From UHGV virus genome UHGV-0213395: a DNA stretch of 43,313 nucleotides; one strand, 5' to 3'. Below, one piece after another: positions 2,976-43,255 of this stretch (the first letter of the stretch is position 1; every line of letters begins with the position of its first letter). The position numbers and the translations under genes were made by a program. The notes under the pieces are model-generated. The model did not search any database and was not told where the DNA came from. It saw only the letters and a program-made list of their open reading frames with translations. The stretch is from a virus.

Positions 2976-3475
2976 TATTTATACTTCCTCGCTTCTTCTT
3001 CGAGCAGTTTATTGAATCGCTGAACGTTAACCCGGACAACACCTTGCGGAGCCTGAAGGGAATATCCGTCTGTGGTTGTTCTGCTGGGCGCTTTCGGCCT
3101 CAATGGGCCAACAAATTTAGAGCCTAAGTTAGAAGGACGCTTAGGGCCATGGAAGCCGGTAGCGTAACCCCCGAACTCTATAACTTCCGCATACGGCAGA
3201 TTATTTGTCAGGGTGAACTCGCTCCAGTCGGGTAAACCAGACACGGTAGAAACCATGGCACTTATTGCGTTCGCCCCGCTAGGGTCAGTACCGCGGCTTG
3301 TACCGGAAGCGGGGGTACTGCCAGAGGCCATCCAGTTCATTCGGAACCGGCCTGTATCTACCGGACTCGCCTTTATAATAGCGGAAAACAGCTTGATAGA
3401 CACCTGACGCATCACCTTCTCAGGGTTCTTCTTCGCCTTTTCCACGAACTTAGAGACATCAAGCGCGAAACTCAT
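2975..3475 (-). CDS. HK97 gp10-like tail component (166 aa)
   Basis: Contains DTGRFR...LPYAEVIEFG resembling the HK97 gp10 family signature; coupled to neighbours. Confidence 0.5.
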   Translation of the reverse strand: MSFALDVSKFVEKAKKNPEKVMRQVSIKLFSAIIKASPVDTGRFRMNWMASGSTPASGTSRGTDPSGANAISAMVSTVSGLPDWSEFTLTNNLPYAEVIEFGGYATGFHGPKRPSNLGSKFVGPLRPKAPSRTTTDGYSLQAPQGVVRVNVQRFNKLLEEEARKYK

Positions 3476-3831
3476 TTTCTCACCTGAATAAAATATGCCA
3501 CGACATCATCGTTAACCATCTTCTTCTCAATGGCTACGACCGACCATTGCTCGCCGCCGAATTGTACCTTGTCTTCCATCTTCGGAACGACACTACAATC
3601 CGCTTTAACAATCATGTCGCCAGCCTGAATCGTCGTACCGTTTACCAGCCCAGCGTTTACCGGAACCGGAACGGCCTTCAACGGCAGCGCTTCATCCGCA
3701 GACCAGACGTATTCACCGAGAACTTCATCCCACACTTTCGAGCCAGCGCGAACCAGAGCTACCGTGCTACCGAATTTGGTTAGCAGGCGTGTACCCACGC
3801 CCTGCATACGTTTGCTGAAAGCGGTGCTCAT
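3472..3831 (-). CDS. head-tail joining (head closure) protein candidate (119 aa)
   Basis: Start moved to in-frame ATG at 3831 with GGGGAG SD; the track start at 3918 lies in an AT-rich insert. Positional call. Confidence 0.45.
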   Translation of the reverse strand: MSTAFSKRMQGVGTRLLTKFGSTVALVRAGSKVWDEVLGEYVWSADEALPLKAVPVPVNAGLVNGTTIQAGDMIVKADCSVVPKMEDKVQFGGEQWSVVAIEKKMVNDDVVAYFIQVRK

Positions 3832-3959
3832 GTTGACTCCCCGCAAACCGCTAAAAATATAATTAGAGCTGTTGTTGATACCAGCGCAAACACTGATACC
3901 AAAAATTCGTACTTCCACAAAAAATCAGAGTTAATCCACATATTAATTATTTTACGCAT
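3828..3959 (-). CDS. small single-pass membrane peptide (43 aa), AT-rich moron-like gene
   Basis: MRKIINMWINSDFLWKYEFLVSVFALVSTTALIIFLAVCGEST; TAATG overlap with upstream gene and ATGA overlap with downstream gene; markedly AT-rich compared with flanks. Confidence 0.4.
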   Translation of the reverse strand: MRKIINMWINSDFLWKYEFLVSVFALVSTTALIIFLAVCGEST

Positions 3960-4573
3960 TACGCAGCCTCCAGTCTCGAAATAACCAGTAGCGCAGATGG
4001 TGCTGTGCCCCATGCAGTTACCGTAGCCGCTTGCGGGTATACGCCGCCGAAGTTACTCCCGGCGCTATCCCGCATAATCTGAACGGCAAACGTCTGGCCT
4101 GCGGTCGGGTTAATAACGACGCGGGATTCAATCGGGATTGTTACATCGGCGCTTACCAGTTTCGTGGCAGCTGGTGAGCCGTATTGAGCTCCGTTAAGAA
4201 GAATGCGCGATAACAGGATGGACGTGCCGCTGGCCCCTGTGCGCCCCGCCTGTAACTTGATGCGAACGGCGTAGTTACCCGCGGTGTTGAATGTAACCAG
4301 CCACGCAGCATTAATCATTACCGGGTCAGATGCACTACCCTGAGCAGAGCCGAACGATACCTGCAACGCCGTATCTACTGCGGTAGGCGCTTGCGCTACT
4401 GTCGACGCAGCGCGGAGAACTTCAACCTCTTTAACACCCGGAGTGGCGTAAATAGGTGAGTCAGCCATCTGGGTTAATACCCCGCGCAACTTCGCAGGCG
4501 TAATAAGTCCGGTCGTGTTGTCCGGTAGCTCGGAACCGATTAGCGTGAATATCTCTGATTTAGTCTTCGCCAT
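3959..4573 (-). CDS. structural protein of unknown role (204 aa)
   Basis: Intact ORF within the neck gene series, tightly packed with neighbours. Confidence 0.55.
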   Translation of the reverse strand: MAKTKSEIFTLIGSELPDNTTGLITPAKLRGVLTQMADSPIYATPGVKEVEVLRAASTVAQAPTAVDTALQVSFGSAQGSASDPVMINAAWLVTFNTAGNYAVRIKLQAGRTGASGTSILLSRILLNGAQYGSPAATKLVSADVTIPIESRVVINPTAGQTFAVQIMRDSAGSNFGGVYPQAATVTAWGTAPSALLVISRLEAA

Positions 4574-4575
4574 TT

Positions 4576-5088
4576 TTAACCCCGGTACACGTTAAACGAG
4601 AAACCATTGTTAAGACCGCCACACAATAACGGGCGTAAAGCGTCGTCAGCAGCGGTAATCGCGGTCGTAGCGCCACTGTTGCCATTGTTGAAGTAGGTCA
4701 CTGTTACCGCACCCTCGACACGCTCAGTCTGCACGGCGCGACCGTCTGAGTTAGCCCGGACTTCGGTGCCCTCGCCATATGTAGCGGCAGCGATTACCTG
4801 CGCAAGAATAACCTGTTTCGGGATTACATTGTTCGCGACAGGGAACCCGTTTAACGTAACGCCGGTGCGGGGGTATGCAAGAGACTGTTCGGCGGATACT
4901 CGACGACCGCACATCTGCGGTTCTGCAAGCCCTACATAAGTAGCACCGTTGCGTAAGGCCACCTCTGCTGCGGTATCGTCTTCCGGCAGCTCAAGGCCAT
5001 AATTAGCCGCTAACGCGCGGGCGTCAGCCAGACTAATGTAACTGTCGGCATTTGGGACGATCACCCCAGTTTCCACGATTAGCGGCAT
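4576..5088 (-). CDS. head-tail connector (gp6-like adaptor) candidate (170 aa)
   Basis: Position after capsid/decoration genes; N-terminal SYISLADARALAANYG resembles adaptor proteins. Weak call. Confidence 0.45.
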   Translation of the reverse strand: MPLIVETGVIVPNADSYISLADARALAANYGLELPEDDTAAEVALRNGATYVGLAEPQMCGRRVSAEQSLAYPRTGVTLNGFPVANNVIPKQVILAQVIAAATYGEGTEVRANSDGRAVQTERVEGAVTVTYFNNGNSGATTAITAADDALRPLLCGGLNNGFSFNVYRG

Positions 5089-7865: not shown

Positions 7866-8129
7866 CTATTCCAGAATATTCCTCACGTAATCCTGCAACA
7901 TGAACACTTTCAGTCTCAGTTGCCGTACGCATTCAGCATTCTGAACGTCGACGGCCAAATCCTCATCAGCGTCGCTACTTGGCTGCGCCAGTTTGCACGG
8001 CGGCTGCATCATCGTCGTATCCGGGGATGGAATTGGCGTTGGCGACGGCGCGGGACTTGAGCTGCACGCGCTCAGGGTCAAAAGTGCACACGCTGCGACC
8101 AGGCGTTTTAATGTACTTAACGACTTCAC
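7866..8129 (-). CDS. o-spanin (Rz1-like outer-membrane lipoprotein, 87 aa)
   Basis: Signal peptide with lipobox LSAC, Pro-rich mature region; starts inside the i-spanin gene in another frame. Confidence 0.55.
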   Translation of the reverse strand: MKSLSTLKRLVAACALLTLSACSSSPAPSPTPIPSPDTTMMQPPCKLAQPSSDADEDLAVDVQNAECVRQLRLKVFMLQDYVRNILE

Positions 8130-8361
8130 GGGTAATCACCTCTGATTTCGTCTTGCCTTCGTTGTCAGCGGCGGCGGCCTTCGATTCATCCTGCTGCTGC
8201 CGTTGTGTTTTCTTCGCTAACTCAGCCTGTGCTTTCTGCTGTTGCTGCGAAACGAGATTAGCCCGGCCTTCGTTCCATCCGCTGCGATACTGGTAGATGC
8301 CGTGTGCGTAAACCAGGATGATGAAACATGCTCCTGCTACGACAGTTGCTTTAAGATTCAT
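7975..8361 (-). CDS. i-spanin (Rz-like, 128 aa)
   Basis: N-terminal transmembrane segment then charged coiled-coil region; overlapped arrangement with o-spanin ORF. Confidence 0.6.
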   Translation of the reverse strand: MNLKATVVAGACFIILVYAHGIYQYRSGWNEGRANLVSQQQQKAQAELAKKTQRQQQDESKAAAADNEGKTKSEVITREVVKYIKTPGRSVCTFDPERVQLKSRAVANANSIPGYDDDAAAVQTGAAK

Positions 8362-13309: not shown

Positions 13310-13808
13310 CGGACACCACCTTAATTGTTACTTCGCTGATTGGCTCGTCGCGTACTTCTTCGGCGACAACTGTTTTATTCAGGCCCAGTTTCGCGGCAGC
13401 AAACGTAGCAGAGATGCCCGCGGCCCCCGTTTCAGTGAAGTATGCCTCTTCCAGCGCCTGTGCTGTCTCCCAGGCTTCTGCAAATGCGGGAATCTCACGC
13501 AGCCAAAGCTTAATAATCGGGATAGTGACTCCGATGTGTAAGGCGAAGCGGGCCAGTGACGGTGGTTTATCCTGAATCAGCGGGCGTTCGTCACCCTTAG
13601 ACGTAGGCACAAGCTCCCACGACGTGCGGTCGAAGAACTCGATTAGTGCATCGCAATAGCCCGGGTCCCACAACGCGGCGGAATTACGGGATGATTGATA
13701 AAGGCTCTGTCTACCGCGCGGTCGTTTACGGCGACGGTTTGCGCTAACAGCTTCTTCATGTGCAGCTTGTACCACCTCTGGCGATGGCTGCTTAAGTTTC
13801 AGCTTCAT
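13299..13808 (-). CDS. terminase small subunit candidate (169 aa)
   Basis: Start moved to ATG at 13808 (AAGGGGA SD); basic N-terminal region; first gene of the structural operon. Confidence 0.5.
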   Translation of the reverse strand: MKLKLKQPSPEVVQAAHEEAVSANRRRKRPRGRQSLYQSSRNSAALWDPGYCDALIEFFDRTSWELVPTSKGDERPLIQDKPPSLARFALHIGVTIPIIKLWLREIPAFAEAWETAQALEEAYFTETGAAGISATFAAAKLGLNKTVVAEEVRDEPISEVTIKVVSGER

Positions 13809-14493: not shown

Positions 14494-14574
14494 GTATCTA
14501 CCCCACAGAAAACCGACCAATAGCCCAATGAAGTAACTAAGACCAACCAGACTTATAACAACCTCAAGACTCAT
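14494..14574 (-). CDS. 26-aa hydrophobic peptide (possible small membrane protein)
   Basis: MSLEVVISLVGLSYFIGLLVGFLWGRY; purine-rich SD upstream; TAATG coupling to next small ORF. Confidence 0.2.
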
Positions 14575-14578
14575 GCTC

Positions 14579-14776
14579 TCACCCCACTATCTCATCGCCA
14601 AGCCACGCCGTTTCTCGTATATCGTCTACTACACACGCAGCGTGCTCGCGGCTAATCGCAAAAATGTAGAAACTGAACTTCTTCCCATCGGCGTCGATGT
14701 GGTTAACCGAGTAAGGTTTCCACAGGACGCCATCGATAACTACCGGCTCAGGCGTGCTCATCTGGCGCCTCAACAA
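14579..14776 (-). CDS. hypothetical early protein (65 aa)
   Basis: ORF in densely packed early operon; true start may be the internal ATG at 14761. Confidence 0.45.
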   Translation of the reverse strand: MLRRQMSTPEPVVIDGVLWKPYSVNHIDADGKKFSFYIFAISREHAACVVDDIRETAWLGDEIVG

Positions 14777-16574: not shown

Positions 16575-16847
16575 TTATCTGAAATATTTCGAGACACGCT
16601 TATGTCCTCCGTATGACAGCCACGCCTGACGAATCTGGCGCAGCGCAACTAATGTGATTAATGTCTCAGGCAGCGTCGGAGACATGCTGCCCTGTAACAG
16701 GTGGATACATCCTGCGGCGCAGACAATAGCAGTCAGGATATAGAGCACCCGGCCAAATAGCCCGTCGTCAACGCTGGGATGATACACATTAAACAGCGAT
16801 GTGCCTCCGATTGCCAGCATACCGCAGAACCAGAATAACTCATTCAT
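16575..16847 (-). CDS. second holin / antiholin candidate (2 predicted TM segments, 90 aa)
   Basis: Start moved to internal ATG (MNELFWFCGMLAIGG...); two hydrophobic stretches; lies between holin and endolysin. Confidence 0.45.
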   Translation of the reverse strand: MNELFWFCGMLAIGGTSLFNVYHPSVDDGLFGRVLYILTAIVCAAGCIHLLQGSMSPTLPETLITLVALRQIRQAWLSYGGHKRVSKYFR

Positions 16848-17148
16848 CCGGGCCTCCTCGACGTGCGATGTATTCTCCGGCGACGATACCGGACAGACGG
16901 GAATAGATAGGCATCCAGAGAATAGCGATAATGAAGCCCAGGCCTGCGATTTCACGGTCGCCCGTGATTCCAAACCATTGAGCTGCGAGAGGTGCGCCAA
17001 ATACGGCGCAAGTGAAGCCAGTTGCAATAAAGCAGAAGCCGTCGATAGGGCCGGAAATAGCGGACTTATGTTGCCTTAGTCCGATTACCCCTCCGGCTAG
17101 TGCGGCAGCGAGAAGCCACCCCGTCACTGTTTCAGTAAATTTATCCAA
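16840..17148 (-). CDS. holin candidate (3 predicted TM segments, 102 aa)
   Basis: Three hydrophobic segments and charged C-terminus; apparent TTG start 7 nt after GGAGG; first gene of lysis cassette. Confidence 0.55.
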   Translation of the reverse strand: MDKFTETVTGWLLAAALAGGVIGLRQHKSAISGPIDGFCFIATGFTCAVFGAPLAAQWFGITGDREIAGLGFIIAILWMPIYSRLSGIVAGEYIARRGGPDE

Positions 17149-27489: not shown

Positions 27490-29666
27490 GCTACTTATAC
27501 CTGGACTTTGAAACATTCTCCGAAGCCGATTTAAAGAAAGTCGGCTCCTACGCTTACGCCGAACACCCGACTACCGAAGTGCTTATCTGCACATATGCTT
27601 TTGACGACGAGCCTGTGCGGGTATGGGATTGCACCGACGGCAGCGACATGCCGGGTGATTTGCACCGCGCACTGCGCCGCCTGGTTAAGCCGAACAGTCG
27701 TATTAAGATGGTGTGGCACAACGGCTCAATGTTCGACAGGCTCATCATGAAACACTGCTGGGGCTTTGATATTCCCGTAAGCAACACCATTGATACGATG
27801 ATTTGGGCGTTTCGTCACGCGCTGCCGGGTTCACTTGATGCGCTGTGCGAAGTGCTGGGCGTGTCTGCAGACAACGCGAAAGATAAACGCGGCAAGGCTC
27901 TGATTAAGCGTTTCTCTAAACCGACGCCGAAGAACTACAAAATCCGCCGCTACACCGCAGAAACTCACCCTGACGAGTGGGCGATGTTCATCAGGTACGC
28001 CGTGAGCGACATCACTGCGATGCGTGAAGTCTTCCATAAGCTGCCGCGTTGGGGTAACTCCGAGTTCGAAGACCGTGTACTGGAACTGGACCAGTTGATT
28101 AACGACCGTGGGTTTAAGGTTGATGTGACGCTGGCGGAAGCCGCGATTGAAGCCGTGGAAAAACACAAGGCCCAGCTACAGGAAGAAGCACAGCGCAAAT
28201 ACGGCGGCTCGCTTACTGGTAAAGACTTCCTGCCGATTCTGCGTGAACTTGCACCAGCGCACCGCATCCACAACGCGCAGAAGTCTACGCTTAACGACCT
28301 GTTGGCGGATGATGATTTACCGGACGACGCACGCACGATTATCGAAATGCGCCTCGGGGCCGCGTCCACAGCGTCAACGAAATATAACCCGCTGCTGTTA
28401 GGGCGCTCGTCGGACGACCGCCGTCGTGGTTGCATTCAGTACGGCGGAGCCAAGCGTACATTACGATTTGCCGGTAAAGGATTTCAGCCGCAGAACCTCG
28501 CGCGTGGGTACTATCACGATGATGAACTGGATAAAGGTATTTCAGCGTTACTTAAGGGCCGCGCGCATCGCCGTTTCGATGTCGCTAAGCTAACGGCATC
28601 GACGGTGCGTAGCTGCATTATCCCGGAAGCCGGAAAAAAGTTTGTCGTCGCCGATTACTCTAACGTTGAAGGTCGGGGGCTTGCGTGGCTGGCAGGCGAA
28701 GAAACCGCGCTAGATACGTTCCGCGCCGGGCTGGACATTTACTGTGTAACCGCGGGTAAGATGTTCGGCATGGAGCCGGATTACATTAAGAAGGAACGCA
28801 AAGACTTGCGCCAGATTGGTAAAGCCTGCGAGCTTGGCCTCGGCTACGCTGGTGGTGTTGGCGCTTTCGTTCAGTTTGCTAAGAACCTCGGACTTGACCT
28901 TGTTGATATGTCAAAAACAATGGACGGTACTTTCCCGGACCACATCTGGGCGGCTACTGCACGCGGCTATGAATGGGCACGTATTCAGGAAGCCAAGCGA
29001 CCGCCGCGACCCGGGGAGAAGGATGACCGACCATCGTATATTCTTGATAAGAAAGTGTGGCGTACCTGTGACGCTATCAAGCGTATGTGGCGAGAGTCAC
29101 ACCCTGAAACAGTAGCTTTCTGGCGAGATATTGAAGACGCAGCTATGGCCGCTATCCGCAATCCAGGTAAAGAGTTCACCGCGGGGCCTAGGGGGGTTAA
29201 GTTTTCGCGCAACGTAGAGACAGACAACAACGGCAACAAAGTCGCCGGCTGGTGGTTGCGCATGACGTTGCCGTCGGGTCGCGTTATGTCTTATCCGGGC
29301 GTCGGGTTAAGCGTGTCGAAAGAAACAGACGAAGATGGAAAAGTGTCTACTAACGTACGCATCAAGTACCAGGGGGAGAACCAGTTAACCCGTCAGTGGG
29401 GCTTCCAGTACACCTACTCTGGTAAACTCGTGGAAAACTGTACTCAGGCGCTGTGCCGTGATTTGCTGGCCAATGCACTGCTGAACGTTGAAGCAAACGG
29501 CTATCCTATTGTGCTTCACGTACACGACGAAATTATCTGCGAAACACCAGATACGCCAGAATACAATGTTGCAGAGCTTGAGCGGTTGATGTGCGAATTA
29601 CCGGAGTGGGCGGAGGGGTTCCCTCTTGTAGCGGAAGGTGCGGAGATGAAGCGTTATGCCAAGTAA
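27486..29666 (+). CDS. family A DNA polymerase with N-terminal 3'-5' exonuclease domain (726 aa)
   Basis: Exo motif YLDFETFS; Pol A motif A VVADYSNVEGR, motif B RKDLRQIGKACELGLGYAGG, motif C VLHVHDEIICE. Start moved to ATG 27486 (AAGGAAAAAG SD). Confidence 0.85.
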   Translation: MSYLYLDFETFSEADLKKVGSYAYAEHPTTEVLICTYAFDDEPVRVWDCTDGSDMPGDLHRALRRLVKPNSRIKMVWHNGSMFDRLIMKHCWGFDIPVSNTIDTMIWAFRHALPGSLDALCEVLGVSADNAKDKRGKALIKRFSKPTPKNYKIRRYTAETHPDEWAMFIRYAVSDITAMREVFHKLPRWGNSEFEDRVLELDQLINDRGFKVDVTLAEAAIEAVEKHKAQLQEEAQRKYGGSLTGKDFLPILRELAPAHRIHNAQKSTLNDLLADDDLPDDARTIIEMRLGAASTASTKYNPLLLGRSSDDRRRGCIQYGGAKRTLRFAGKGFQPQNLARGYYHDDELDKGISALLKGRAHRRFDVAKLTASTVRSCIIPEAGKKFVVADYSNVEGRGLAWLAGEETALDTFRAGLDIYCVTAGKMFGMEPDYIKKERKDLRQIGKACELGLGYAGGVGAFVQFAKNLGLDLVDMSKTMDGTFPDHIWAATARGYEWARIQEAKRPPRPGEKDDRPSYILDKKVWRTCDAIKRMWRESHPETVAFWRDIEDAAMAAIRNPGKEFTAGPRGVKFSRNVETDNNGNKVAGWWLRMTLPSGRVMSYPGVGLSVSKETDEDGKVSTNVRIKYQGENQLTRQWGFQYTYSGKLVENCTQALCRDLLANALLNVEANGYPIVLHVHDEIICETPDTPEYNVAELERLMCELPEWAEGFPLVAEGAEMKRYAK

Positions 29667-29787
29667 ACTGATTATCGCGGTACTGGCGGGATTTGCCGCC
29701 GGTGTCTACTGTCACGAGGGACAATACGGCATGATGGTTGCCATATTGGGCATGTTCATCGCAATTTATATGTGGGTGCTGGAATGA
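29656..29787 (+). CDS. small membrane protein (43 aa)
   Basis: ATG overlaps 3' end of polymerase gene; hydrophobic IIAVLAGFAAGV ... VAILGMFIAIYMWVL. Confidence 0.3.
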   Translation: MPSKLIIAVLAGFAAGVYCHEGQYGMMVAILGMFIAIYMWVLE

Positions 29788-29873
29788 AAATTTACTGGTT
29801 TTATGAAGACGACTGCCGAATCTGCCCGCGCTGCGGGATTGAGCATACGAAACGTGAGGGGTGCGTATTATGA
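29784..29873 (+). CDS. 29-aa zinc-ribbon-like peptide
   Basis: CRICPRC ... EGC cysteine pattern; ATGA coupling on both sides. Confidence 0.25.
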   Translation: MKIYWFYEDDCRICPRCGIEHTKREGCVL

Positions 29874-30022
29874 CAATGTTTGTATTTAGGACCATAGTAA
29901 CCATGCTCGCACTGTTACTCGGTGCGGGAATAGCTGCTATGTTCTGTTACGGCCTGTTCTTTCAGTTTGCCGGTGTTGCCATTCTAGGCTGGGTTTTCCT
30001 TACCTGGATGCTGCGGTCATGA
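29870..30022 (+). CDS. small membrane protein (50 aa, 2 predicted TM segments)
   Basis: Hydrophobic throughout; ATGA overlap with VRR-NUC start. Confidence 0.3.
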   Translation: MTMFVFRTIVTMLALLLGAGIAAMFCYGLFFQFAGVAILGWVFLTWMLRS

Positions 30023-42928: not shown

Positions 42929-43255
42929 ATGCGTAAATTAGTACTAGCTCTGGGTTTTATGTCTTTTGCTACTTTTGGGGCCCCGTGCGAACAGGTATTT
43001 AGTGAATCTGTTCTTATGACTTCTGGTGTGCTTGATAAAGCCGACCCTACTATTGTAAAGGCATTTAAGGACTCCACAGTCCGTGAATGCGAGGCCGCCG
43101 TAGATGTCGGTAAATCGGGCCTACCTCCGCAAGCCGTAACATACACGGTAATACGTTCGGTAGAGAAAACCGGAGACGCGTTTTACAGCCTTCTGACAGC
43201 CACCCGTCTGCAAATGGTAATGACTGGATGGGCAATAGGCGCAGAAAGTAAATAG
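42929..43255 (+). CDS. small secreted/periplasmic protein (108 aa, signal peptide)
   Basis: MRKLVLALGFMSFATFGA then PCEQ: cleavable signal peptide without lipobox; two Cys in the mature part; lower GC than flanks. Confidence 0.6.
   Translation: MRKLVLALGFMSFATFGAPCEQVFSESVLMTSGVLDKADPTIVKAFKDSTVRECEAAVDVGKSGLPPQAVTYTVIRSVEKTGDAFYSLLTATRLQMVMTGWAIGAESK

What the first reader, a model, noticed from the sequence alone, without database searches (positions are those of the whole stretch)
3828..3959. AT-rich 43-codon membrane-peptide gene embedded in the neck gene cluster
Between the 204-aa structural gene and the head-closure-like gene lies a markedly AT-rich stretch encoding MRKIINMWINSDFLWKYEFLVSVFALVSTTALIIFLAVCGEST, one clear transmembrane helix. 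It is coupled by TAATG and ATGA overlaps on both sides. The composition contrast with the flanking structural genes suggests acquired DNA. Small membrane peptides in late operons can act in superinfection exclusion or lysis timing.
Basis: seen in the sequence. Interest (0 to 1): 0.55.

Follow-up and report, generated by a model that had tools for sequence, protein, structure and literature searches.

The report
Swappable membrane mini-gene in phage neck
A real 43-codon gene for a tiny membrane-spanning peptide sits between two neck genes of an E. coli phage, at a spot where related phages carry nothing or one of several unrelated mini-genes; what the peptide does is not known.

Summary
It encodes 43 aa. 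Its ATG overlaps the stop of the 204-aa gene (TAATG) and its stop overlaps the head-closure (Hc1) start (ATGA). GC is 0.35 against 0.51 for the window.

The window is a Kagunavirus, 99.6% identical to phage Bas76 over the 1.4 kb searched, where this ORF is annotated "hypothetical protein".

This junction is a polymorphic slot. Most relatives have it empty. Others carry a 32-aa membrane peptide, a 37-aa basic peptide or a 113-aa Cys-rich protein. Every insert starts on the upstream stop and ends on the Hc1 start.

The window's allele is in only 8 GenBank phages. It is 98.5–100% identical among the seven compared, while flanks differ by up to 13%, so it spread recently by recombination.

One diverged homologue (57% identity) occupies the same slot in a distant relative. 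An invariant NSDFLWKYEF motif persists over saturated synonymous sites, so the peptide is under protein-level selection.

It has no promoter, no terminator, no known family and no co-varying partner gene.

The acquired-DNA reading is supported. The proposed roles in exclusion or lysis timing are untested.

The parts
3828..3959 (-). Allele A mini-gene: 43 codons plus stop, encoding MRKIINMWINSDFLWKYEFLVSVFALVSTTALIIFLAVCGEST. This is the whole insert relative to genomes with an empty slot.
   Evidence: Annotated as hypothetical protein Bas76_0016 in PQ850632. Absent in Bas72 and Schulenburg.
3957..3961 (-). TAATG overlap: stop of the 204-aa gene (3961-3959) and start of the peptide (3959-3957).
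3967..3971 (-). GGAGG Shine-Dalgarno sequence inside the last codons of the 204-aa gene, 7 nt before the peptide ATG. In genomes with an empty slot the same GGAGG serves Hc1.
   Evidence: Sequence, compared with the empty junction.
3903..3938 (-). Codons for residues 8-19, W-x-NSDFLWKYEF. This juxtamembrane motif is invariant between allele A and its only homologue.
   Evidence: All synonymous sites differ and only one codon is non-synonymous.
3840..3902 (-). Codons for residues 20-40, the predicted transmembrane helix. Its C-terminal half (T-x-ALI-x-FLAV) is conserved in the homologue.
3837..3842 (-). GGGGAG Shine-Dalgarno sequence for Hc1, carried inside the cassette's last codons, 5 nt before the Hc1 ATG.
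   Evidence: Sequence. Alleles B, C and D each carry their own purine-rich stretch at the same place.
3828..3831 (-). ATGA overlap: Hc1 start (3831-3829) and peptide stop (3830-3828).
3959..4573 (-). Upstream flank: 204-aa gene (phrog_3614, function unknown; called 'neck protein' in one record).
3472..3831 (-). Downstream flank: 119-aa head-closure (Hc1) gene. It matches phrog_17193 ('tail completion or Neck1 protein') best and phrog_161 ('head closure Hc1') second. One record notes HHpred similarity to the SPP1 gp16 head completion protein.
3770..4123 (.). Tract with no differences between the window and UTEC10, whose flanks are otherwise about 10% diverged. It contains the cassette. Breakpoints differ in other allele-A phages.

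Best explanation
SHOWN. The feature is a genuine accessory mini-gene. It occupies a polymorphic slot at the junction between the 204-aa gene (here p204) and the head-closure gene (Hc1) in Guernseyvirinae siphophages. It is one of at least four unrelated cargo families found at that junction. They are: A (this 43-aa peptide, with a 46-aa homologue), B (a 32-aa membrane peptide), C (a 37-aa basic peptide) and D (a 113-aa Cys-rich protein). Most relatives have the slot empty.

The cassette has no promoter or terminator of its own. Its ATG overlaps the p204 stop and uses the GGAGG that serves Hc1 in empty-slot genomes. Its last codons carry a replacement Shine-Dalgarno sequence, and its stop overlaps the Hc1 start. 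The A family is under protein-level purifying selection. Within E. coli kagunaviruses the allele is nearly invariant while the flanks differ by up to 13%. The identity tracts around it have different breakpoints in different phages. Together these indicate recent spread by homologous recombination between co-infecting phages.

INFERRED, about 0.8. It is translated from the late structural mRNA by coupling. The product is a single-pass inner-membrane helix with its N-terminus in the cytoplasm and its C-terminus in the periplasm. The conserved W-x-NSDFLWKYEF motif would lie at the cytoplasmic membrane interface. The conserved TAALIxFLAV half-helix would lie in the outer leaflet. The peptide is dispensable for virion assembly.

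INFERRED, weak. It acts in trans on the infected cell's inner membrane, on a host protein or on a phage protein that is conserved among these phages. My single best guess, at about 0.25-0.3, is modulation of late membrane events, meaning holin triggering and lysis timing. The basis is that it is made late and in step with neck proteins, whereas exclusion functions of virulent phages are typically early genes (own knowledge). Some relatives also carry an Imm-like gene elsewhere.
For: Identity and annotation: the window is 99.6% identical to Bas76 over 3300-4700, and the ORF is annotated there.

Slot polymorphism: empty junctions; alleles B and C; allele D. Among 76 IMG/VR loci fetched with Hc1 as query, 13 are occupied (B 9, C 2, D 2) and none carries A. 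The other three neck junctions are occupied in 0, 0 and 1 of those loci.

GenBank counts among 151 related records: A 8, B 29, C 5, D 2.

Cargo are real mobile genes. B-like 32-aa genes sit after the NinH-like gene, upstream of the terminase gene where the flank was seen, in Salmonella relatives. D has more than 100 homologue clusters in unrelated phages and prophages, and dN/dS of 0.06.

Coding constraint on A. The only homologue among 1.84 billion representatives is P0001, E = 5.9e-6. It is encoded in the same slot between a p204 homologue (72% aa identity) and an Hc1 homologue (71%). For A against P0001, pS = 0.74 and pN = 0.35. In the motif, 4.5 of 4.5 synonymous sites have changed against one non-synonymous codon.

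Recent spread. The cassette is 98.5-100% identical, against 86.8-99.5% for p204 and 91.6-100% for Hc1. Breakpoints vary. The chance of so few differences at flank rates is 9e-7 to 9e-4. B and C show the same pattern.

No autonomous signals or RNA element.

Membrane helix.

No partner locus. In a tile-wise comparison of the window with 5 A-bearing and 4 other genomes, only tiles overlapping the cassette discriminate. Holin alleles do not.

Codon usage is atypical.
Against: There is no direct evidence of translation, membrane insertion or any phenotype.

The family has only two sequence types, so the selection test rests on one pairwise comparison with saturated dS.

Topology rests on a weak charge bias. 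The N-terminal net charge is +1 in A and -1 in the homologue.

The near-identity inside Kagunavirus gives no within-genus selection signal: 3 substitutions, 2 synonymous and 1 not.

The lysis-timing guess rests on timing logic only. The gene is about 13 kb from the holins and endolysin. Holins are 97-100% conserved whether or not A is present. The unrelated cargo in the same slot (a basic peptide, a Cys-rich soluble protein) suggest the site is merely permissive, so location says little about function.

In the published BASEL assays the three A-bearing phages show no advantage. They tend to be the most sensitive to the P2 Old defence, but n = 3 against 4, P = 0.11, and the assay hosts differ.
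Confidence: 0.7

Rival explanations
1. Superinfection exclusion. The peptide inserts in the inner membrane and blocks DNA entry by a second phage, as the HK97 gp15 moron does.
For: It is a small predicted inner-membrane peptide. It is encoded by an insert of atypical composition inside a morphogenesis operon and is absent from close relatives. That is the same anatomy as HK97 gp15, as described in PMC3594210. Its recent spread across diverged backbones would fit a trait selected in phage-phage competition.
Against: It has no homology to gp15/YebO, Imm or any exclusion family. It has no promoter of its own, so it should be made late with the neck proteins, when exclusion is of little use to a virulent phage (own knowledge: T4 imm and sp and T5 llp are early genes). 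Only about 3-5 poorly conserved residues would face the periplasm. Some relatives, including the A-bearing UTEC10, already carry an Imm-like 63-aa protein in another island. No tape-measure or tail allele co-varies with A.
Confidence: 0.2
2. Another host-directed accessory role. Examples are counter-defence against a membrane-associated immunity system, or inhibition or retuning of a host membrane protein (transporter, protease, sensor), in the manner of bacterial small membrane regulators such as MgrB or AcrZ.
For: The slot's other cargo (B, C, D) are generic accessory genes of the kind found in early or 'nin'-type gene arrays. No phage partner co-varies, so the target is host-encoded or conserved. 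The conserved cytoplasmic-interface motif plus half-helix looks like a protein-protein interface. Accessory status and recent spread.
Against: No match in PADLOC, Pfam, PHROGs or NCBIfam. A-bearing BASEL phages show no gain on the eleven defence systems assayed (six restriction-modification systems plus RexAB, PifA, Fun/Z, Old and Tin) and are, if anything, more sensitive to Old.
Confidence: 0.2
3. A passenger with no function for the phage. Any ORF that preserves ribosome hand-over from p204 to Hc1 is tolerated at this junction, so the peptide is a neutral or mildly selfish filler that hitch-hikes by recombination.
For: The junction accepts five unrelated sequences of 99-342 nt. Every one preserves start/stop overlaps and brings a Shine-Dalgarno sequence for Hc1, which is what selection on Hc1 expression alone would demand. 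Most relatives do without any insert. T-rich DNA tends to encode hydrophobic peptides by default (own knowledge).
Against: A and its homologue keep 24 of the 43 aligned residues, including a 10-residue invariant block, over saturated synonymous sites. That is not expected for a filler. The B family is conserved between genera in two different genome contexts. D has dN/dS of 0.06. Phage genomes delete useless DNA quickly (own knowledge), yet the A family persisted across a divergence of about 30% at the protein level.
Confidence: 0.12
4. Not a peptide gene at all. It is a non-coding AT-rich spacer or regulatory element (promoter, terminator, RNA), or an N-terminal extension of Hc1 from the GTG at 3918.
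For: The Hc1 frame is open back to a GTG at 3918, giving a 148-aa ORF. The region is AT-rich, as promoters are.
Against: No sigma-70-like promoter, terminator, Rfam match or unusual fold was found. There is no nucleotide-level conservation with the homologue beyond what the protein needs. The Hc1-frame extension is not shared: alleles C and D have stops in that frame, and empty-slot genomes start Hc1 at the same ATG.
Confidence: 0.03

Closest known systems
HK97 gp15 moron (YebO-related inner-membrane superinfection-exclusion protein; Juhala 2000 and Cumby 2012, as summarised in PMC3594210)
   Same: Both are small predicted inner-membrane proteins encoded by extra DNA of atypical GC, wedged between morphogenesis genes and absent from close relatives.
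   Different: gp15 has its own promoter and terminator and works from a prophage. This cassette has neither, sits in a phage described as lytic, is coupled to its neighbours at both ends, has no YebO or gp15 homology, and is one of several alternative occupants of the same junction.
T4 Imm-type 'superinfection immunity' proteins, including the 63-aa Imm-like gene of some kagunaviruses (Bas74_0023, UTEC10, K1G ORF21)
   Same: Both are small phage-encoded membrane proteins and both are accessory in this genus.
   Different: There is no sequence similarity. The Imm-like protein is 63 aa with more than one hydrophobic segment (sequence; my reading). It lies in a different island, between the major tail gene and the tail chaperones, on the opposite strand. 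It can co-occur with allele A, as in UTEC10.
Holin, antiholin and other lysis regulators (own knowledge: lambda S105/S107, T4 T/RI/RIII)
   Same: Both are late-made small proteins of the inner membrane. Lysis timing is a plausible target for a dispensable, exchangeable modifier.
   Different: No family match. The gene is not in the lysis cassette (holins at 16578-17148). It has no charged C-terminal tail and no periplasmic sensor domain.
Integron gene cassettes and promoter-less accessory-gene arrays
   Same: Promoter-less ORF units are expressed from an upstream signal, with alternative unrelated cargo at one fixed site.
   Different: There is no integrase in the annotated relatives and no attC-like repeats. 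Exchange appears to go through homologous recombination in the flanking structural genes. Expression depends on translational rather than transcriptional hand-over.
Bacterial small membrane regulators (own knowledge: MgrB, AcrZ, and others under 50 aa)
   Same: Same size class and single-helix architecture, with a short conserved interface motif.
   Different: No homology. This one is phage-encoded and its target is unknown.

Membership tests
Moron (as defined in PMC3594210, citing Juhala et al. 2000) | Extra DNA present in one genome and absent at the same site in close relatives | tested here: met
   Bas72 and Schulenburg have p204 and Hc1 directly overlapping. 62 of 78 classifiable loci are empty.
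Moron (as defined in PMC3594210, citing Juhala et al. 2000) | Nucleotide composition unlike the surrounding genes | tested here: met
   GC 0.348 against 0.51 for the window, the lowest 0.7% of 132-nt windows. GC3 0.37 against 0.60, beyond what the amino-acid content explains.
Moron (as defined in PMC3594210, citing Juhala et al. 2000) | Own promoter and terminator (an independent transcription unit) | tested here: not met
   No promoter-like or terminator-like site in 3400-4400. The insert is exactly the ORF and overlaps both neighbours.
Moron (as defined in PMC3594210, citing Juhala et al. 2000) | Expressed from a repressed prophage to benefit the lysogen | not testable with these tools
   No integrase is annotated in Bas73. 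No match to the locus in 5,426 E. coli genomes. Papers on the genus describe its phages as lytic.
HK97 gp15 / YebO exclusion proteins | Sequence homology to YebO or gp15 | tested here: not met
   No Pfam or NCBIfam family at E <= 1. An exhaustive HMMER search returned only P0001 and a spurious repeat protein.
HK97 gp15 / YebO exclusion proteins | Blocks genome entry of a superinfecting phage | not testable with these tools
   This needs plating assays on cells expressing the peptide.
T4 Imm-type superinfection immunity protein | Homology to the Imm family | tested here: not met
   No Pfam hit. The Imm-like protein of relatives is a different sequence at a different locus and has no match in this window.
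Holins and antiholins | Match to a holin or antiholin family, and location in the lysis cassette | tested here: not met
   No PHROG, Pfam or NCBIfam hit. The holins are at 16578-17148.
Type I toxin peptides (Hok, TisB, Ldr, Ibs and similar) | Family homology; own promoter with an antisense RNA | tested here: not met
   No NCBIfam or Pfam hit. No promoter on either strand and no Rfam match.
Integron-type gene cassette | attC-like inverted repeats at the cassette end; an integrase in the genome | tested here: not met
   Only short, chance-level repeats. No integrase is annotated in relatives.
A-family slot peptides (defined here: W-x-NSDFLWKYEF, then a transmembrane helix ending TAALIxFLAV, encoded between p204 and Hc1) | The motif, the single transmembrane helix and the slot position | tested here: met
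   The members are allele A (8 GenBank phages plus the window) and P0001 (three Logan contigs carry it; two were shown, L091 and L092).

The most novel reading that the evidence does not exclude
The p204|Hc1 junction of Guernseyvirinae may be a dedicated 'plug-in' expression site. Promoter-less mini-genes, each bringing its own ribosome-binding site for the next structural gene, would be swapped there between co-infecting phages. The A peptide would be the founding member of a new class of late-made inner-membrane effectors. Its NSDFLWKYEF interface motif would bind a host or holin partner to set lysis timing or block a competitor.
Probability: 0.2. Interest if true: 0.6.

Novelty: new variant of a known kind. 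Interest (0 to 1): 0.38.

Why it matters
Phage genomes are full of tiny unannotated or "hypothetical" ORFs, and it is rarely clear which are real. Here comparative evidence alone shows that a 43-codon ORF is a selected protein.

It also shows that one gene junction in a structural operon works as an exchange point for unrelated mini-genes, with no transcription signals of their own.

The BASEL phages Bas70-76 form a natural allelic series on a laboratory E. coli host: allele A, allele C and the empty slot. The function of such micro-proteins, and the rules that let a structural operon tolerate inserts, could therefore be tested directly. The site may also be a safe insertion point for engineering kagunaviruses, which the BASEL paper calls attractive for synthetic biology.

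Tried and rejected
Source of the cassette. I found no match by exact DNA words in IMG/VR, JGI metagenomes or GTDB genomes. A degenerate pattern for the NSDFLWKYEF motif found nothing in the same three collections. Blastn against plasmids, megablast of the locus against E. coli genomes and tblastn against 50,697 phage records beyond the 8 kagunaviruses were also negative. The word-indexed protein search found nothing for A alone and only P0001 with the two-sequence profile.

Family assignment. PHROGs, Pfam, NCBIfam, PADLOC and PDB sequences were all negative for A and P0001.

RNA or regulatory reading. The promoter/terminator scan, Rfam and folding z-score (-0.31) were all negative. Terminal repeats were negative.

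Partner-gene search. In a tile-wise comparison of the window with 5 A-bearing and 4 other complete genomes, nothing outside the cassette discriminated. Holin, Imm-like and other small membrane genes do not track with A.

Phenotype mining in the BASEL S1 Data. There is a trend toward higher Old sensitivity in A-bearers, but it is not significant (P = 0.11) and is confounded by assay host.

Function of co-slot cargo D. The AlphaFold2 model is confident (pLDDT 90), but it resembles no solved structure, and among viral models only an unnamed homologue. It gave no functional hint.

Structure searches for p204 and Hc1 by sequence against the PDB were uninformative.

The 61-aa upstream-ATG version and the 148-aa GTG-extended Hc1 were rejected as ORF-finder artefacts.

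Full report
WHAT IS THERE

The ORF lies on the minus strand. Its ATG is at 3959-3957 and its TGA at 3830-3828. It encodes MRKIINMWINSDFLWKYEFLVSVFALVSTTALIIFLAVCGEST.

Its ATG shares an A with the TAA of the upstream 204-aa gene (3959-4573), here called p204. Its TGA shares two bases with the ATG of the 119-aa head-closure gene Hc1 (3472-3831). Hc1 matches phrog_17193 ('tail completion or Neck1 protein') best and phrog_161 ('head closure Hc1') second; p204 is phrog_3614, function unknown.

A GGAGG lies 7 nt before the peptide's ATG. A GGGGAG inside its last codons lies 5 nt before the Hc1 ATG.

GC is 0.348 against 0.510 for the window, in the lowest 0.7% of 132-nt windows. With the codon usage of the structural genes, this peptide would be expected at GC 0.443. 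So roughly half of the contrast is amino-acid content. The rest is atypical codon choice: GC3 of 0.37 against 0.60, P about 6e-4.

Hydropathy gives one strong membrane segment at residues 20-38. AlphaFold2 gives a single helix over residues 2-42 with pLDDT 87.

WHICH PHAGE

Window 3300-4700 is 99.6% identical to Escherichia phage VerenaMeyer_Bas76 (PQ850632). That phage is a Kagunavirus (Guernseyvirinae) from the extended BASEL collection. The ORF is annotated there, and in seven other records, as "hypothetical protein". No E. coli genome carries the locus.

THE KEY FINDING: A POLYMORPHIC SLOT

Megablast hits fell into length classes. Reading the junction in relatives shows several states.

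- Empty. p204 and Hc1 overlap directly (…GGAGGCTGCCTGATGAGC…), as in Bas72 and Schulenburg.
- Allele A. The window's 43-aa peptide.
- Allele B. A 32-aa hydrophobic peptide, MNKFTCGVVFGFLTAVALHSYGVLLTLQEVLK.
- Allele C. A 37-aa basic peptide, MEVKKRLVIKRSYGYKKRLSDASKELANILSTKRGLE.
- Allele D. A 113-aa Cys-rich protein.

Every insert begins with an ATG on the p204 stop and ends with ATGA on the Hc1 start. Each carries a purine-rich Shine-Dalgarno-like stretch in its last codons.

I fetched 76 IMG/VR loci with Hc1 as the query, which makes them an unbiased sample. Of these, 13 are occupied (B 9, C 2, D 2) and none carries A. The three neighbouring neck junctions are occupied in 0, 0 and 1 of those loci.

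Among 151 related GenBank records, tblastn finds A in 8, B in 29, C in 5 and D in 2. All are at this junction.

THE CARGO ARE REAL, MOBILE GENES

- B-like 32-aa genes, 52-58% identical and of the same length, occur in Salmonella Guernseyvirinae. There they sit at a different place, directly after the NinH-like gene; in SenTO17 the terminase gene follows.
- D belongs to a family of more than 100 clusters in unrelated phages and prophages. Its two slot copies have dN/dS of 0.06. Its confident AlphaFold2 model matches no solved structure.

IS ALLELE A A PROTEIN?

An exhaustive HMMER search of 1.84 billion representatives found one true homologue. It is P0001, 46 aa, MSIWSKVKDYWENSDFLWKYEFIGGWFILCLTAALIVFLAVAENSQ, with E = 5.9e-6.

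Three Logan contigs carry it; the two shown place it in the same slot. Its neighbours are a p204 homologue at 72% amino-acid identity and an Hc1 homologue at 71%. No close GenBank relative of that phage exists.

The two peptides share 24 of the 43 aligned residues. These include W-x-NSDFLWKYEF and T-x-ALI-x-FLAV. At the DNA level pS = 0.74, which is saturated, against pN = 0.35. Within the motif every synonymous site has changed, but only one codon is non-synonymous.

This is protein-level purifying selection. It also rules out a nucleotide-level element. The scans for promoters, terminators, Rfam families, RNA structure and repeats were negative as well.

HOW IT MOVES

Among the seven GenBank carriers compared with the window (M01 was not), allele A is 98.5-100% identical in DNA. 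In the same phages p204 is 86.8-99.5% identical and Hc1 91.6-100%.

The chance of so few differences at flank rates is 9e-7 to 9e-4 per phage. Since the comparison with P0001 shows no nucleotide constraint, recency is the explanation.

The identity tract around the cassette ends at different points in different phages. It runs 3770-4123 in UTEC10, but breaks 5 nt outside the cassette in AMO_3701M. That is the signature of homologous recombination in the flanking structural genes. Alleles B and C show the same pattern, about 98% identity against 91-94% in the better-aligned flanks.

The A family is therefore an old occupant of the slot, shared with a lineage about 30% diverged in protein. It entered the E. 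coli Kagunavirus gene pool once, recently, and has been passed around since.

WHAT IT DOES

Nothing in any family library matches A.

I compared the window tile by tile with 5 other A-bearing and 4 non-A complete genomes. Only tiles overlapping the cassette discriminate. There is no co-inherited partner. The holins (window 16578-17148) are 97-100% conserved among the E. coli phages compared other than K1G, and one of the two is only 88% in Bas72.

Some relatives carry a 63-aa Imm-like "superinfection immunity" gene in a separate island. The window has a 108-aa signal-peptide protein at that position instead.

BASEL plating data show no benefit for A-bearers. They tend to be more sensitive to P2 Old, but P = 0.11 and the assay hosts differ.

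Function is therefore inference. The peptide should be made late, by ribosome hand-over from p204. It should sit in the inner membrane with a cytoplasmic N-terminal motif. It is dispensable for assembly.

I rank the options as follows.
- Modulation of late membrane events or lysis timing: about 0.25-0.3.
- Superinfection exclusion: about 0.2.
- Another host-directed role, including counter-defence: about 0.2.
- A functionless passenger: about 0.12.
- Not a peptide gene at all: about 0.03.

COMPARISON WITH WHAT IS KNOWN

The closest described thing is the moron, with HK97 gp15 as the archetype. That is a small inner-membrane exclusion protein inserted in a tail operon, with atypical GC (PMC3594210).

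This cassette meets the "extra DNA" and "odd composition" criteria. It fails the "own promoter and terminator" criterion and has no YebO or gp15 homology. It is not a classical moron.

It is best described as a promoter-less, translationally coupled variant, sitting in a multi-allelic hotspot of a phage described as lytic.

VERDICT

The gene is real and the acquired, accessory reading is supported. The family is new but tiny. The slot behaviour is neat but not startling for phage genomics. Function is open.

Noticed in passing
window 42929-43252 (+); Bas74 13442-13648, UTEC10 29030-29221, K1G 14531-14722: There is a second accessory island, between the major tail gene and the tail-chaperone genes on the opposite strand. 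It holds alternative envelope proteins. The window, Bas70/72/73/75, KMB35 and CR01 have a 108-aa signal-peptide protein. Bas74, UTEC10 and K1G have a 63-aa Imm-like protein with more than one hydrophobic segment, annotated 'superinfection immunity protein'.
   Followed up: partly
K1G GU196277 7987-8736; AMO_3701M locus L084 2780-2932: K1G carries a mobE-like homing endonuclease between the 59-aa gene and the head-tail adaptor gene, about 1.1 kb upstream of the slot. AMO_3701M has an extra 50-aa ORF at that same junction. Homing-driven co-conversion might help move this region, but I did not test that.
   Followed up: no
L091 1294-1455 and L092 1010-1171; L016 2249-2446: Other neck junctions occasionally hold coupled mini-genes. 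The A2-bearing Logan contigs have a 53-aa gene between Hc1 and Neck1. One IMG/VR phage has a 65-aa gene between Neck1 and the tail terminator.
   Followed up: partly
L088 1501-1599 (SenTO17), L089 1501-1599 (VSiA): The 32-aa allele-B peptide family (MNKF..G..FGF..AV..HS….L.TLQ.V) also occurs directly after the NinH-like gene of Salmonella Guernseyvirinae, upstream of the terminase gene in SenTO17. The same mini-gene therefore occupies two different genome contexts within the subfamily.
   Followed up: partly
L026 and L052 slot (342 nt); P0003-P0121: Allele D is a 113-aa protein with an invariant CxxC…CxxC pattern. It belongs to a large uncharacterised family in unrelated phages (Klebsiella, Sashavirus, Pseudomonas jumbo phages) and in prophages. 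The AlphaFold2 model is confident (pLDDT 90) but resembles no solved structure.
   Followed up: partly
BASEL S1 Data (PMC11990801, supplementary file 8): Efficiency of plating on the P2 Old defence, as geometric means: Bas73 (A) no plaques, Bas76 (A) about 0.005, Bas75 (A) about 0.02, Bas74 (C) about 0.02, Bas71 (C) about 0.15, Bas70 (C) about 0.6, Bas72 (empty) about 0.7. A-bearers trend more sensitive, but P = 0.11 and Bas74-76 were assayed on a different host.
   Followed up: partly
window 7866-8361 (-): The i-spanin gene and its embedded o-spanin lie inside the head module, between the scaffold gene and a small-ORF region. They are about 8-9 kb from the holins and endolysin (16.5-17.1 kb).
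   Followed up: no
window 29656-29784 and 29870-30019 (+): Two further small hydrophobic ORFs (43 and 50 aa) lie in the replication-gene region. The 43-aa one is conserved in all nine compared genomes. The 50-aa one is present in only four of them.
   Followed up: no
CR01 OR061068 (locus L095): Many core genes are split in this record (major capsid, DNA polymerase, tape measure, head-tail adaptor). This suggests frameshift errors in the assembly, so its gene calls near the slot should not be over-read.
   Followed up: no
K1G GU196277 9965-10716: The depositors annotated Hc1 and the next neck gene as joined by a programmed frameshift (ORF14A/14B). I did not examine this.
   Followed up: no
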